This document shows, piece by piece, positions 25,858 to 28,591 of a stretch of 64,000 bases of DNA (position 1 is the stretch's first letter; each line of letters begins with the position of its first letter). The notes beneath the pieces were generated by a model. The model did no database searches. It worked only from the letters and a program-made list of their open reading frames with translations, and was not told where the DNA came from. Source of the DNA: Pseudolabrys sp. (lineage in GTDB: Bacteria; Pseudomonadota; Alphaproteobacteria; Rhizobiales; Xanthobacteraceae); assembly GCA_035626335.1 (NCBI GenBank), contig DASPNW010000023.1, forward strand, positions 14,738 to 78,737, written 5' to 3'. The translations under genes were made by a program, and so were the position numbers.

Positions 25858-26217
25858 TTACGGGCACGGATGTCGGAAACCGTCATACCCGAGATAGGTT
25901 TGTGTCGTGGGATCGTAGGATCGAAAGCGCTGCATACAGTAAGCAATCGGATCGCCAGCGACCGCGGGCGCGGGCTCGTAATACCCGGCCGGACCATATC
26001 TGCGCCTTTGGCTCTCCGCGCCAATAATGGCACCGGTGGCGGCGCCGACTCCGGCGCCAATAGCCGCACCGCGACCGCCGCCTGCCACGCCACCGATAAT
26101 GGCGCCGGCGGCGCCTCCAAGTATCGCCCCGCCCAGCGGATCCTGAGCTGCCGCCTCATGAGCCGGCATGGCCGCAACCAGCGTCAATAAGGCCACCATT
26201 CCCGTTATGCGAAACAT
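25858..26217 (-). CDS. BA14K family / glycine-zipper exported protein
   Basis: GAILGGAAGAIIGG zipper; AYCMQRFRSYDP..QTYLGYDG.RHPCP; RBS AAGGAG. Confidence 0.85.
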   Translation of the reverse strand: MFRITGMVALLTLVAAMPAHEAAAQDPLGGAILGGAAGAIIGGVAGGGRGAAIGAGVGAATGAIIGAESQRRRYGPAGYYEPAPAVAGDPIAYCMQRFRSYDPTTQTYLGYDGFRHPCP

Positions 26218-26307
26218 GTACGTTCTCCTTCTGTGGTCTCTTAGAGTAGCGCGACTCAATCGCCGGCAAAACGCAGAAAATTGGACAGGCAACGTCATTA
26301 GCCCAGC

Positions 26308-26850
26308 CTATTTGGCATCCGTCCCTGCCACGGCTCCGAGCGAGCGCATAAACATCTGCATGCCGTAGTGGAAAGCTATAAAAGCTCCCAACTCCATGAT
26401 TTGAGATTCCGAATAATGCTTTTTGAGCTCGTTGTAAAAAGCTGAATCGATCTGCGTCGCATCGAGAAACATCAAGTCGGCATAACGTAGCGCCCACCTC
26501 TCGGCCTCGGTAAATGAGGCATCACTTTCATAGTCGTGACAGCCAGCATCGATGCGGGCCTCGGTGAGATCCATGTCGCGAGCTTTGCGCGAGCGCAGCG
26601 CCGCAAAATACTTGTCATTGGCGAAGCGCGCCAACAATACCCGAATGATTTCTTTCAGACGATGATCGACATTGCCTTCCGTGTGACTCATTAACAACGC
26701 GCGCATCAGTGGCTTCGCCTGCTCTGGCGCGCGTGCAACAATCCGTGGAAAAACATCGTCAGGCACGCCCAGTGCTTCACACTGTGCAATCAGCTCTACC
26801 ATTTCCGGATCGGCAATTGCGTCCCGGGGCAGCGGCGCGATGTAGCTCAT
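26308..26850 (-). CDS. AhpD/CMD-family protein lacking the CxxC motif
   Basis: HRLKEIIRVLLARFANDKYFAALRS, with DKYF at the CxxC position; ATGA overlap with the upstream gene. Confidence 0.8.
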   Translation of the reverse strand: MSYIAPLPRDAIADPEMVELIAQCEALGVPDDVFPRIVARAPEQAKPLMRALLMSHTEGNVDHRLKEIIRVLLARFANDKYFAALRSRKARDMDLTEARIDAGCHDYESDASFTEAERWALRYADLMFLDATQIDSAFYNELKKHYSESQIMELGAFIAFHYGMQMFMRSLGAVAGTDAK

Positions 26851-27470
26851 TTCGCAGCCTCTTCCGATTTCAATGACACCGGCGCCGCACCGTAAAGCTT
26901 TTCCGATTCTGCTTGCGTCAGTAGCCGACCATCAGGCGAGAAAAGCGGATAGAACTTCAGCGAGCCGAAAAATGTGTGATACCCAAGATTGAACCCGATG
27001 AAGGCGCCAAGCTCGACAATCTCGTCATCGCTGTAATATTTACGCAATTCATCAAAAAACGCGGAATCGACCTTGTCTGGGTCGGTCGCCATCAATTCGC
27101 TGTAACGCAGGGCCAATTTATCGGCTTCAGAAAACCGGGCACTCGCGGCATAGTTGTCGATGCCTTCATCCAGCATCGCCTCGGAAAGTCCCTGTCGCTT
27201 CGCCGAAGCAGACCGAACATTCCCTCAATAACTGCACGCTGCCATGCGTGATAGCTGGACGCGGATTACTTCCTTTATCGTGTGCGGAATACGGCCCTTG
27301 TTGAAGCAGGCGTCCCACGCAACAAACATCGCTTCGCAAAGGTCGATATTGTGCCCCATGATCGCATGGAAGCCCGGATCCGGCGCGCGGTGTTCAAGGC
27401 ACTTGTCGATGTATGGCCGAAGCTTCGTTTTCCGAAGCTCCTCTATGTCCAGCATCGTGATGTTTGGCAT
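26847..27470 (-). CDS. AhpD/CMD-family selenoprotein candidate, 207 aa, Sec at residue 82 (TGA 27227-27225)
   Basis: The 81-aa and 109-aa ORFs are in frame across one TGA (RMAACSY-U-GNVRS); colinear with the downstream paralog; SECIS-like hairpin follows. Confidence 0.85.
27183..27224 (-). promoter_or_regulatory. Bacterial SECIS-like element
   Basis: 11 nt after UGA: GUC-(U bulge)-GCUUC-[GGC]-GAAGC-GAC; lower stem GGAA.GUUC/GGAC.UUCC. Confidence 0.8.
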
Positions 27471-27669
27471 GGCTTGTCCTCAGGAAGACCGGAGACCCTC
27501 GAGAAATACTAGGTCACGACCCGGCAAATGAGGCAAGCGAGAATCGCGCCTCCGAGAACAAGTGGGTAACTGCAATCAAGAGTTCGTAGTAGTGATATCT
27601 GCGCGCCCGTACCAATGCAGGTCAGTCGTGCTGTCCTAAGTGCGACGCGACCTTTAGGCCGAGACAGAT

Positions 27670-27706
27670 CAAAAGCGAACATCATCGGACGCTTGCGTGT
27701 TGTCCG
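27670..27706. repeat. Degenerate repeat remnant
   Basis: CAAAAGCGAACAT followed by CGGAC-N11-GTCCG. Confidence 0.4.
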
Positions 27707-27748
27707 CCTAGACGTCACGATCACGGTTGGCGTCCTGCGGGAGAGGCC

Positions 27749-28591
27749 ATGATTACCGTTCCCGAATTGGCGGCTGAGGCATTGGGGTCTCATCTTGCCG
27801 AGCACATGGGCCGCCGGTTTGGCTCGACAAATCCGGATTTAATTGAACTCGTCCAGTCTGCCGCCAGACTCGCCATCGACTGTATTGGCAACAGTGACGC
27901 GCTCTATCACAACGTCGAGCACACGATGCTAGTAACTCTCGTTGGCTACGATATTTTGCGCGGAAAAAGGCTCTTAATTGAGACGAATGCCAGCGATTTC
28001 GCGCACCTCATCGTCGCTTGCCTGTTTCACGACATTGGTTACGTGCGCGGCATCGTTAACGGCGACGGCGATGACGGCTACGTCGTTGACGTTAAAGGCA
28101 ACAAGATCACGCTGCCGCGCGGATCGTCCGACGCCGCACTGATGCCGTTTCACGTCGATCGGTCAAAGCTGTTCGTAATGGATCGTATGGCCAAGATGAA
28201 ATTACTCGATGCGACACGCGTCGCCACTGCCATCGAGTTCACACGTTTTCCATCATCTCACGAGATTGACGATGCTGACAGCGAAGAGGGCTCGCTGGTA
28301 CGCGCCGCCAATCTTATCGGCCAACTTGGCGACCCTCATTATCTCCGCAAGGCCAATGCCCTCTATCGCGAGTTCGAAGAAGTCGGGATGAACGGACAAC
28401 TCGGCTATACCTCGCCGATTGATATTACCGATCTCTATCCGCGGTTCTATTGGGACAGTGTATCGGCGCAGATCCAGAGCGCGATCCGATATCTCAACGT
28501 CACATCAAGCGGACGGCGGTGGATTGCAAATCTTTACAGCAATGTTTTTCGCGCCGAGCGTGAGCTAAATCTGAGAGGTCCACAACGCTAA
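27749..28591 (+). CDS. HD-domain metal-dependent phosphohydrolase (Npun_R2479-like)
   Basis: YHNVEHT, LFHDIGYVRG, RAANLIGQLGDP.YLRK.NALY.EF.E. Confidence 0.8.
   Translation: MITVPELAAEALGSHLAEHMGRRFGSTNPDLIELVQSAARLAIDCIGNSDALYHNVEHTMLVTLVGYDILRGKRLLIETNASDFAHLIVACLFHDIGYVRGIVNGDGDDGYVVDVKGNKITLPRGSSDAALMPFHVDRSKLFVMDRMAKMKLLDATRVATAIEFTRFPSSHEIDDADSEEGSLVRAANLIGQLGDPHYLRKANALYREFEEVGMNGQLGYTSPIDITDLYPRFYWDSVSAQIQSAIRYLNVTSSGRRWIANLYSNVFRAERELNLRGPQR

What the first reader, a model, noticed from the sequence alone, without database searches (positions are those of the whole stretch)
26847..27470. Hidden selenoprotein: AhpD/CMD-family enzyme with a CxxU motif, split by ORF callers
Seen: ORFs 27225-27470 and 26847-27176 share a frame and are separated only by one TGA (27227-27225) plus 16 sense codons. 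Readthrough gives 207 aa with ...RVQLSRMAA-C79-S-Y-U82-GNVRS. The adjacent paralog aligns without gaps across this point (HRLKEIIRVLLARFAN-DKYF-AALRS vs HTIKEVIRVQLSRMAA-CSY*-GNVRS) and on to the C-terminus, so the two halves are one gene. Known: AhpD/CMD proteins use a CxxC redox motif, and CxxU variants are the selenoenzyme form. Inference: the UGA encodes selenocysteine. Sec use in this lineage is mostly associated with formate dehydrogenase, so a Sec thiol-redox enzyme here is unusual and would be auto-annotated as a pseudogene.
Basis: partly seen in the sequence, partly recalled or inferred. Interest (0 to 1): 0.92.

Follow-up and report, generated by a model that had tools for sequence, protein, structure and literature searches.

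The report
Known CMD-family selenoprotein gene, mis-split
The two short ORFs are one gene for a selenocysteine-containing AhpD/CMD-like redox protein; the call is correct, but this selenoprotein family was already predicted from ocean metagenomes in 2005, so this is a new member and not a new kind.

Summary
On the minus strand, 27470..26847 reads as one 207-codon frame, broken only by TGA at 27227-27225 inside a C79-S-Y-U82 motif.

The TGA is not an error or a recent mutation:
- It stands in assemblies of several independent peat and wetland metagenomes.
- All 80 related genome loci examined have TGA there (67-92% protein identity). None has TGC or TGT.
- Both halves are under strong purifying selection.
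- A hairpin (GCUUC-GGC-GAAGC) 15-30 nt downstream is nearly invariant. Its codons are frozen at synonymous sites.
- Fifteen of 80 loci carry tRNA-Sec, selA, selB or selD within 3 kb.
- Distant homologues and solved AhpD/CMD structures place the second Cys of CxxC at U82.

It is not new. Zhang, Fomenko and Gladyshev (2005) list "CMD domain-containing protein" selenoproteins with the same CxYuGNVRSASAK motif and the same hairpin, 63% identical over 87 residues.

I found three points not mentioned in the papers I read:
- A Cys-less paralogue always follows the gene and is sometimes fused to it.
- The pair often sits beside or inside a sel gene cluster.
- In Betaproteobacteria it neighbours a Prx-like selenoprotein.

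The sel genes of the window's own genome were not seen.

The parts
26847..27470 (-). Complete selenoprotein gene: 207 codons plus a TGA stop. It encodes a CMD/AhpD-like protein with a C79-x-x-U82 motif.
   Evidence: Single-frame translation. Orthologues are collinear in 80 loci. dN/dS against the window is 0.046 upstream and 0.07 downstream of the TGA. A model of the 76%-identical homologue P0001 has the AhpD fold.
27225..27227 (-). In-frame TGA, read as the selenocysteine codon (U82).
   Evidence: TGA in 81/81 sequences, none TGC or TGT. Confirmed in independent metagenome contigs. It aligns to the second Cys of CxxC in Bmp8 and PA0269 and in 44 representative Cys homologues.
27234..27236 (-). 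Cys79 codon (TGC), the likely resolving partner of U82.
   Evidence: Cys in 81/81 sequences (TGC 72, TGT 9).
27183..27223 (-). SECIS-like hairpin inside the coding sequence. The conserved core is 27196-27210 (GCUUC-GGC-GAAGC plus a Y:G pair). The apical loop GGC is at 27202-27204, starting 20 nt after the UGA.
   Evidence: Window MFE fold is -16.3 kcal/mol, z -2.08. The RNAalifold consensus has 6 pairs. 94.9% of cells are paired against 37-58% when the partner is slid. There is one compensatory U:A->C:G change (L078) and several wobble variants. Codons 88-91 (GCT, TCG, GCG, AAG) are fixed in 79-81 of 81 sequences, the lowest codon entropy in the gene. The same sequence stands in the Sargasso Sea entries.
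26308..26850 (-). Downstream CMD-like paralogue without redox residues (D-K-Y-F in place of C-S-Y-U). Its start overlaps the selenoprotein stop (ATGA).
   Evidence: ORF list and alignment. It lies directly downstream in 79/80 loci, and the 80th locus is truncated. An ATGA or GTGA overlap occurs in 55/79 loci. The two genes are fused into one ORF in L034 and in P0007, P0010, P0013, P0016, P0017 and P0029.

Best explanation
Window 27470..26847 (minus strand) is one intact gene for a selenoprotein of the AhpD/carboxymuconolactone-decarboxylase (CMD) superfamily. It belongs to the family published in 2005 as 'CMD domain-containing protein' (CxxU).

Shown or strongly supported:
- The UGA at codon 82 is decoded as selenocysteine.
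- The signal is a hairpin 15-30 nt downstream, inside the coding sequence. It has the layout of a bacterial SECIS: an upper stem, a G-rich GGC apical loop 20 nt after the UGA, and a bulged or wobble pyrimidine.

Inferred mechanism:
- U82 lies in the first turn of a helix and C79 just before it, as the CxxC pair does in AhpD.
- U82 would be the attacking selenolate. C79 would resolve the intermediate into a selenenylsulfide, so the protein is a thiol/selenol oxidoreductase.
- The Cys-less paralogue encoded immediately downstream is translationally coupled, and fused in some lineages. It most likely forms a heteromer with the selenoprotein as a non-catalytic subunit.

The physiological substrate is unknown. 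The best guess is an AhpD-like reductant of a peroxiredoxin-type protein, because a Prx-like UxxC selenoprotein is encoded next to the pair in Betaproteobacteria. A Bmp8-like reductive dehalogenation is a weaker alternative.

My sub-confidences are:
- single gene with Sec at 82: about 0.93
- member of the 2005 family: about 0.95
- heteromer with the paralogue: about 0.6
- peroxide or disulfide reductase role: about 0.4
For: - TGA is real: six independent metagenomes hold the stretch and contigs cover the codon unchanged.
- TGA is conserved: 80/80 loci from Xanthobacteraceae/Pseudolabrys, Burkholderiales, Nitrospirota, Acidobacteriota and Gammaproteobacteria MAGs have TGA at codon 82 and Cys at 79.
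- The downstream half is translated: dN/dS is 0.046 upstream and 0.07 downstream, and GNVRSASAK right after the TGA is invariant. There is no in-frame ATG after the TGA in 77/81 sequences.
- TGA is still a stop in these organisms: it ends this same gene in the window and in 74/79 loci.
- The hairpin is conserved, with one compensatory and several wobble changes. Synonymous variation collapses at codons 88-91 (entropy 0.31 bit against about 1.0) and dS is halved over codons 83-97.
- Sec machinery is linked to the gene. tRNA-Sec lies within 3 kb in 8/80 loci. selB is confirmed by TIGR00475 in L001 and L047. selA+selB lie upstream and selD downstream in L002, L004, L005, L007, L008, L011 and L022.
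- CxxC equivalence: Bmp8 CMYC and PA0269 CAYC align on C79..U82. 44 representative homologues have C..C..R at positions 79, 82 and 86.
- Fold: the AF2 model of the 76%-identical homologue P0001 (pLDDT 76, pTM 0.71) matches Bmp8 and AhpD structures at TM 0.63-0.76. Residues 79-82 sit at the start of helix 80-92.
- Published family: AACY01716242 and AACY01688758 read ...CNYuGNVRSASAK... with TGA-GGCAACGTGCGGTCTGCTTCGGCGAAGC, and are 63% identical over 87 aa.
- Pairing: the paralogue is downstream in 79/80 loci, and fusions and start/stop overlaps occur.
Against: - No tRNA-Sec, selA, selB or selD was found in the 64-kb window. Sec competence of this particular genome is inferred from relatives and from the gene being under selection.
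- Hairpin stability alone is not distinctive. The z-scores are -2.08, +0.44 and -1.85 for three variants.
- Covariation support is thin, with one double change. Most pairs never vary, and the encoded peptide is itself invariant, which also constrains the first and second codon positions.
- No Rfam family matches. No RNA-seq run was available.
- There is no protein-level evidence of selenium.
- Pfam CMD scores 22.4, just under its 23-bit threshold.
- The His of the AhpD CxxCxxxH motif is Arg here, so the chemistry may differ from AhpD.
Confidence: 0.9

Rival explanations
1. Pseudogene or artefact: a recent nonsense mutation or a sequencing or assembly error truncated an ordinary CxxC CMD-family gene.
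For: Automatic callers split or truncate the gene. The window itself shows no Sec machinery.
Against: The TGA is identical in independent metagenomes, including in a variant strain. TGA stands in 80/80 orthologous loci down to 67% identity, and none has TGC or TGT. Selection downstream of the TGA is strongly purifying, with dN/dS 0.07.
Confidence: 0.01
2. Two separate polypeptides: translation normally ends at UGA82, and the C-terminal half is made from an internal start (ATG 27176 in the window), giving a split CMD protein.
For: The window has an in-frame ATG at codon 99. Gene callers find alternative starts for the second half in other genomes. Some termination at UGA is expected for any bacterial selenoprotein gene (general knowledge).
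Against: The ATG is absent in 77/81 orthologues. Codons 83-97, upstream of any such start, are the most conserved protein segment, with dN 0.03. The split would cut the redox motif and the helix that carries it. The linkage to selC, selB, selA and selD would be left unexplained.
Confidence: 0.03
3. UGA is read through without selenium, by a reassigned code (UGA=Trp or Gly) or by near-cognate suppression inserting Trp or Cys.
For: Some database entries translate the codon as W. Cys can replace Sec under selenium limitation in some bacteria (general knowledge).
Against: TGA is the ordinary stop of this very gene in the window and in 74/79 loci, so the code is not reassigned. The W entries are explained by callers choosing code 4 on short contigs. 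The position is a catalytic Cys in homologues. A conserved hairpin and physical linkage to tRNA-Sec and selB point to the SelB pathway.
Confidence: 0.03

Closest known systems
'CMD domain-containing protein' selenoprotein family of the Sargasso Sea (Zhang, Fomenko & Gladyshev 2005, PMC1088965). Reviews in 2022 and 2026 list it as 'CMD-like protein, PF02627, CxxU' (PMC9312934, PMC13188914).
   Same: The motif RVQLSR..C-x-Y-U-GNVRSASAK is the same. The nucleotides after the TGA are the same, including the GCTTCGGCGAAGC hairpin. Identity is 63% over the 87 residues available.
   Different: The published entries are short marine fragments. This one is a complete gene from a peat or wetland Xanthobacteraceae-like alphaproteobacterium. 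I did not find the obligatory paralogue partner, the fusions or the sel-cluster context in the papers I read.
AhpD-like (COG2128/YciW, TIGR01926) selenoproteins and NCBIfam NF053654 'YciW-related (seleno)protein'
   Same: Same superfamily, and the CxxU motif is at the same place. NF053654 is the best NCBIfam hit (61.9 bits) and TIGR01926 scores 36 bits.
   Different: Both scores are far below the curated cut-offs (310 and 81.8). The Sargasso AhpD-like sequences (..NECEYuIRAH....NQCHYuMVHH..) keep the His after the motif and are clearly a different subfamily.
Mycobacterium-type AhpD, the CxxC reductant of peroxiredoxin AhpC (mechanism from general knowledge), and solved AhpD/CMD structures (7XW1, 6K40, 2IJC, 2O4D)
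   Same: All-helical AhpD fold (TM up to 0.76). The redox pair is at a helix N-terminus. A peroxiredoxin-like gene is adjacent in Betaproteobacterial loci.
   Different: Sec replaces the second Cys. Arg replaces the motif His (CxxUxxxR), and the Cys relatives of this branch also have CxxCGNxRS. There is a ~45-residue conserved C-terminal extension (FYPxFSPDGRL). No Prx-like gene lies in the window.
Bmp8 tetrabromopyrrole debrominase (PDB 6OHI/6OHJ)
   Same: It is the closest solved structure both by sequence (E 6e-10, residues 35-160) and by fold (TM 0.64/0.72). Its C-M-Y-C aligns on C-S-Y-U. From memory, it was proposed to share a reductive dehalogenation strategy with the selenoenzyme iodothyronine deiodinase.
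   Different: Identity is only about 22%. Bmp8 uses Cys, sits in a bromopyrrole biosynthetic cluster, and has no paired paralogue. No halogen-metabolism genes were seen beside the window gene.

Membership tests
Bacterial selenoprotein gene (SelB/SECIS-dependent UGA recoding) | In-frame UGA conserved among orthologues, with coding conservation on both sides | tested here: met
   81/81 sequences have TGA. dN/dS is 0.046 upstream and 0.07 downstream.
Bacterial selenoprotein gene (SelB/SECIS-dependent UGA recoding) | Stem-loop shortly 3' of the UGA with G in the apical loop. The bSECIS criteria (loop roughly 16-37 nt after the UGA) are recalled from memory. | tested here: met
   The hairpin GCUUC-GGC-GAAGC is conserved, and its loop starts 20 nt after the UGA. 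94.9% of cells are paired, there is one compensatory change, and synonymous sites are frozen. Stability alone is not significant. bSECISearch itself was not run.
Bacterial selenoprotein gene (SelB/SECIS-dependent UGA recoding) | Cys-containing homologues align Cys with the UGA | tested here: met
   44 representative homologues have C-x-x-C at positions 79 and 82. Bmp8, PA0269 and 2O4D have CxxC there.
Bacterial selenoprotein gene (SelB/SECIS-dependent UGA recoding) | selA, selB, selC and selD present in the same genome | tested here: inconclusive
   None was found in the 64-kb window. They are present within 3 kb of the orthologue in 15/80 related genomes, including the closest relative, L001. 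The rest of the window's genome is not available.
Bacterial selenoprotein gene (SelB/SECIS-dependent UGA recoding) | Selenium actually incorporated at the UGA position | not testable with these tools
   This needs 75Se labelling or mass spectrometry.
'CMD domain-containing protein' selenoprotein family (Zhang et al. 2005) | Sequence similarity, including the C-x-Y-U-GNVRSASAK motif and the same SECIS region | tested here: met
   63% identity over 87 aa. The motif and the GCTTCGGCGAAGC hairpin are identical.
AhpD/CMD superfamily (Pfam PF02627) | Pfam CMD domain at the gathering threshold | tested here: inconclusive
   22.4 bits against a cut-off of 23. Homologues P0001, P0002, P0004 and P0006 carry precomputed PF02627 hits.
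AhpD/CMD superfamily (Pfam PF02627) | All-helical AhpD fold with the redox pair at a helix N-terminus | tested here: met
   AF2 model of the 76%-identical homologue P0001 (pLDDT 76). Foldseek finds Bmp8, AhpD and PA0269 at probability 1.00 and TM 0.5-0.76. Residues 79-82 sit at the start of helix 80-92.
AhpD/CMD superfamily (Pfam PF02627) | CxxCxxxH proton-relay His after the motif (AhpD proper; recalled from memory) | tested here: not met
   Position U+4 is an invariant Arg (GNVRS) in 81/81 sequences. PA0269 has CAYCVNMH in the alignment.
NCBIfam NF053654 YciW-related (seleno)protein, and TIGR01926 peroxidase-related enzyme | Score at or above the curated cut-off | tested here: not met
   61.9 against 310 bits, and 36 against 81.8 bits.
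Bmp8-type thiol debrominase | Dehalogenase activity or a halogenated-metabolite gene context | not tested
   Only fold and sequence resemblance are shown. The neighbours in the window are DUF992, amidohydrolases, a cupin and BA14K.

The most novel reading that the evidence does not exclude
The selenoprotein and its Cys-less paralogue form an obligate heteromer that is a functional part of a mobile 'selenium island' (selA-selB-selC-selD plus cargo). One possibility is an all-selenium counterpart of the AhpC/AhpD peroxidase couple, working with the adjacent Prx-like UxxC selenoprotein. Another is a Sec-dependent reductive dehalogenase related to Bmp8, a bacterial analogue of deiodinase chemistry on an AhpD scaffold.
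Probability: 0.2. Interest if true: 0.6.

Novelty: new member of a known kind. Interest (0 to 1): 0.3.

Why it matters
For annotation: this gene, and hundreds of orthologues in soil, groundwater and freshwater Alpha- and Betaproteobacterial MAGs, are currently recorded as fragments, 'hypothetical' halves or code-4 artefacts. No NCBIfam model reaches its cut-off. A dedicated model would repair many records.

For biology: genomes sequenced by 2006 gave FdhA as the only selenoprotein of Alpha- and Betaproteobacteria (PMC1794560). This gene adds a thiol-redox selenoprotein that often travels with the sel genes.

The strict pairing with a redox-dead paralogue, and the fusions, give a concrete handle on the unknown function of CMD-like selenoproteins. 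None of this changes the basic picture of selenoprotein biology.

Tried and rejected
- Plasmid collection, megablast of 14 kb around the gene: only an unrelated ABC-transporter hit in Microvirga.
- First search for related loci with the mixed alignment A1 failed because it had no conserved stretch. It was repeated with full-length sequences only.
- Rfam at permissive E-values over 26200-27800: only chance hits to epsC and isrG, and no SECIS family.
- RNA-seq runs holding the stretch: none served, so there is no transcription evidence.
- Hairpin free energy against shuffles is not convincing by itself. I rely on conservation instead.
- Promoter and terminator scan: nothing above expectation.
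- Search for sel genes and tRNA-Sec in the window was negative. It used ARAGORN, NCBIfam on ten candidate-sized ORFs, and tblastn with SelA, SelB, SelD and the Prx-like protein from related loci.
- The L001-specific neighbours (a GcvH-like protein and three small ORFs between selB/selC and the gene) suggested a lipoyl-protein link as in mycobacterial AhpD. They occur in no other locus or in the window, so I dropped the idea.
- All-vs-all clustering of flank ORFs was noisy because of GC-rich spurious ORFs. It served only as a pointer to selA, selD and the Prx-like gene.
- A literature search for Bmp8 found no paper in the library. Statements on its mechanism are from memory.

Full report
**1. 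The observation**

On the minus strand, ORF 27470..27225 ends ...RMAACSY-TGA, and ORF 27176..26847 is in the same frame. Translating 27470..26847 in one frame gives 207 sense codons with a single internal stop at codon 82. The local sequence is C79-S-Y-*-G-N-V-R-S, and 16 codons separate the TGA from the ATG of the second ORF.

The next gene downstream (26850..26308) overlaps the stop by ATGA.

**2. The TGA is real**

The 1.3-kb stretch is present with all sampled 31-mers in six independent peat and wetland metagenome runs. Contigs from three of them cover 27225-27227 unchanged. A second, variant X4 contig has ten nearby substitutions and none in the TGA. No read-level pile-up was possible, because these runs are held only as contigs.

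**3. It is conserved, so it is not a lesion**

A protein search returned 271 relatives. Most are 113-130-aa C-terminal halves or N-terminal pieces ending ...C-x-Y. The few full-length entries have W at position 82, which is what a caller produces when it reads TGA with code 4.

A scan of one genome per species found 167 genomes with a relative. All 80 loci kept have TGA at the homologous codon and Cys three codons before it. None has TGC or TGT. The loci come from these MAG groups:
- Pseudolabrys and other Xanthobacteraceae, 81-92% identity
- Burkholderiales and other Betaproteobacteria, 67-79% identity
- single Nitrospirota, Acidobacteriota and Gammaproteobacteria MAGs

Evidence that the downstream half is translated:
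- Measured against the window gene, dN/dS is 0.046 for codons 1-81 and 0.07 for codons 98-195.
- The 15 codons between the TGA and the supposed second start have the lowest dN of all (0.03).
- 77 of 81 sequences have no in-frame ATG after the TGA.
- TGA also terminates this same gene in the window and in 74 of 79 loci, so the organisms use the standard code.

**4. A recoding signal**

Directly 3' of the UGA, every sequence can form the hairpin GCUUC-GGC-GAAGC, extended by a C/U:G pair and further pairs. Its apical loop begins 20 nt after the UGA.

On the 81-sequence alignment, 94.9% of cells in my 11-pair structure are paired. The figure is 37-58% when the 3' partners are slid by 1-3 columns. 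One sequence (L078) shows a U:A->C:G double change, and others show G:U intermediates.

The strongest evidence is at synonymous sites. Codons 88-91 are GCT (80/81), TCG (81/81), GCG (81/81) and AAG (79/79). Neighbouring Gly, Leu and Ser codons use 4-6 synonyms. Six-codon entropy falls to 0.31 bit against about 1.0 elsewhere, the minimum of the gene. dS over codons 83-97 is half that of the flanks.

Some evidence is weak or missing:
- Folding energy alone is not distinctive, with z between -2.1 and +0.4.
- Rfam has no matching family.

**5. The Sec machinery travels with the gene**

- ARAGORN finds tRNA-Sec (anticodon tca) within 3 kb in 8 of 80 loci.
- In L001, the closest relative, tRNA-Sec lies inside the 3' end of an ORF that matches selB (TIGR00475). 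L047 has selB next to tRNA-Sec.
- tblastn shows selA+selB divergently upstream and selD immediately after the paralogue in seven Alphaproteobacterial loci. selB is present in 13 loci.
- In all, 15 of 80 loci carry a sel gene within 3 kb, in three different arrangements. I estimate roughly 0.2 would be expected by chance.

The window itself has none of these. This is the main gap in the case.

**6. What the protein is**

- NCBIfam's best hit is NF053654 'YciW-related (seleno)protein' at 61.9 bits against a 310-bit cut-off.
- Pfam CMD scores 22.4 against 23.
- Against solved structures, the best sequence match is the debrominase Bmp8 (6OHI, E 6e-10). PA0269, 2O4D and AhpD entries follow. Their C-x-Y-C aligns on C79..U82.
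- An AlphaFold model of the 76%-identical homologue P0001 (pLDDT 76, pTM 0.71) is all-helical. Residues 79-82 lie at the N-terminus of helix 80-92. Foldseek returns Bmp8, AhpD and 'peroxidase-related' proteins with TM up to 0.76.
- A search of 1.8 billion representatives shows that Cys relatives exist only at about 24-38% identity, with C-x-Y-C-G-N-Q-R-S. The other common class is the D-x-Y-F paralogue type.
- The branch has Arg where AhpD proper has the motif His.

**7. It is already known**

The supplement of Zhang, Fomenko and Gladyshev 2005 (PMC1088965) lists 'CMD domain-containing protein' selenoproteins AACY01716242 and AACY01688758:
- Protein: VDHKLKEVIRVQLSRAADCNYuGNVRSASAKQQGL...
- DNA after the TGA: GGCAACGTGCGGTCTGCTTCGGCGAAGC...

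These are 63% identical to the window protein over 87 residues and have the same hairpin.

Later literature is consistent with this:
- The 2022 and 2026 reviews list 'CMD-like protein, PF02627, CxxU'.
- The GOS study lists AhpD-like 1 and 2 with CxxU, and calls AhpD-like 2 more abundant in non-marine samples.
[quoted passage not shown] The 2026 review mentions operonic clustering of Prx-like and AhpD-like selenoprotein genes.

**8. What may be new**

- The paralogue follows the selenoprotein gene in 79 of 80 loci, and the 80th is cut off.
- Stop and start overlap as ATGA or GTGA in 55 of 79 loci.
- In L034, and in database proteins from SAR324 and Betaproteobacteria (P0007, P0010, P0013, P0016, P0017, P0029), the two are fused through a low-complexity linker. 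This points to a physical complex.
- In eight Betaproteobacterial loci, a Prx-like selenoprotein gene (GHW-U-PYC, in-frame TGA) follows the pair, before selC and selB. This recalls the AhpC/AhpD couple.

**9. Verdict**

It is a new member of a family catalogued since 2005 whose function has never been tested. Interest is modest.

Noticed in passing
L041:2976-3455 (+), L062:4433-4903 (+); also L036, L045, L047, L061, L063, L069: A second selenoprotein gene lies about 1.1-1.3 kb after the TGA of the CMD gene. It is peroxiredoxin-like, with an in-frame TGA in ...FYRGHW-U-PYC... (a UxxC motif). tRNA-Sec and selB follow it on the opposite strand. No homologue lies in the window.
   Followed up: partly
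L001:8-1219 (+) and L001:1103-1198 (+): In the closest relative (a Pseudolabrys MAG), the tRNA-Sec gene lies inside the 3' end of the selB reading frame. This is the nested arrangement described for Alphaproteobacteria by Mukai 2021, as cited in PMC13188914.
   Followed up: partly
window 27180-27223: Metagenome unitigs break here, and word depth jumps (for example to 55 against about 8 in run X8). Several co-occurring strains or species seem to share this short stretch exactly. That fits the nucleotide-level invariance of the hairpin region.
   Followed up: partly
P0237 (CSYWGSVRT) and P0172 (CEYWATHRS) from the representatives search: Other, more distant members of the same superfamily branch carry W at the position of the second Cys. 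They may be further TGA-containing (Sec) subfamilies translated with code 4.
   Followed up: no
L002:400-2600 (-): The selA gene upstream of the CMD pair is spread over two reading frames in this long-read MAG. This is probably an indel error of the assembly and not a real frameshift.
   Followed up: no
L072, L074 (record titles): MAGs titled 'Bordetella parapertussis' and 'Klebsiella pneumoniae' carry loci that resemble those of environmental Betaproteobacteria. L074 has a hairpin region almost identical to that of the Lake Baikal MAG L073. The species labels look unreliable.
   Followed up: no
L001:2467-2907 (+): A GcvH-like lipoyl-carrier protein gene lies directly upstream of the selenoprotein gene in this one locus (NF002270, 72 bits, below cut-off). 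It is not found in any other locus or in the window.
   Followed up: yes
window 27749-28591 (+): The divergently transcribed 280-aa ORF upstream of the selenoprotein gene has no Pfam family. Synteny with the closest relatives is limited to the two CMD genes (about 1.15 kb).
   Followed up: partly
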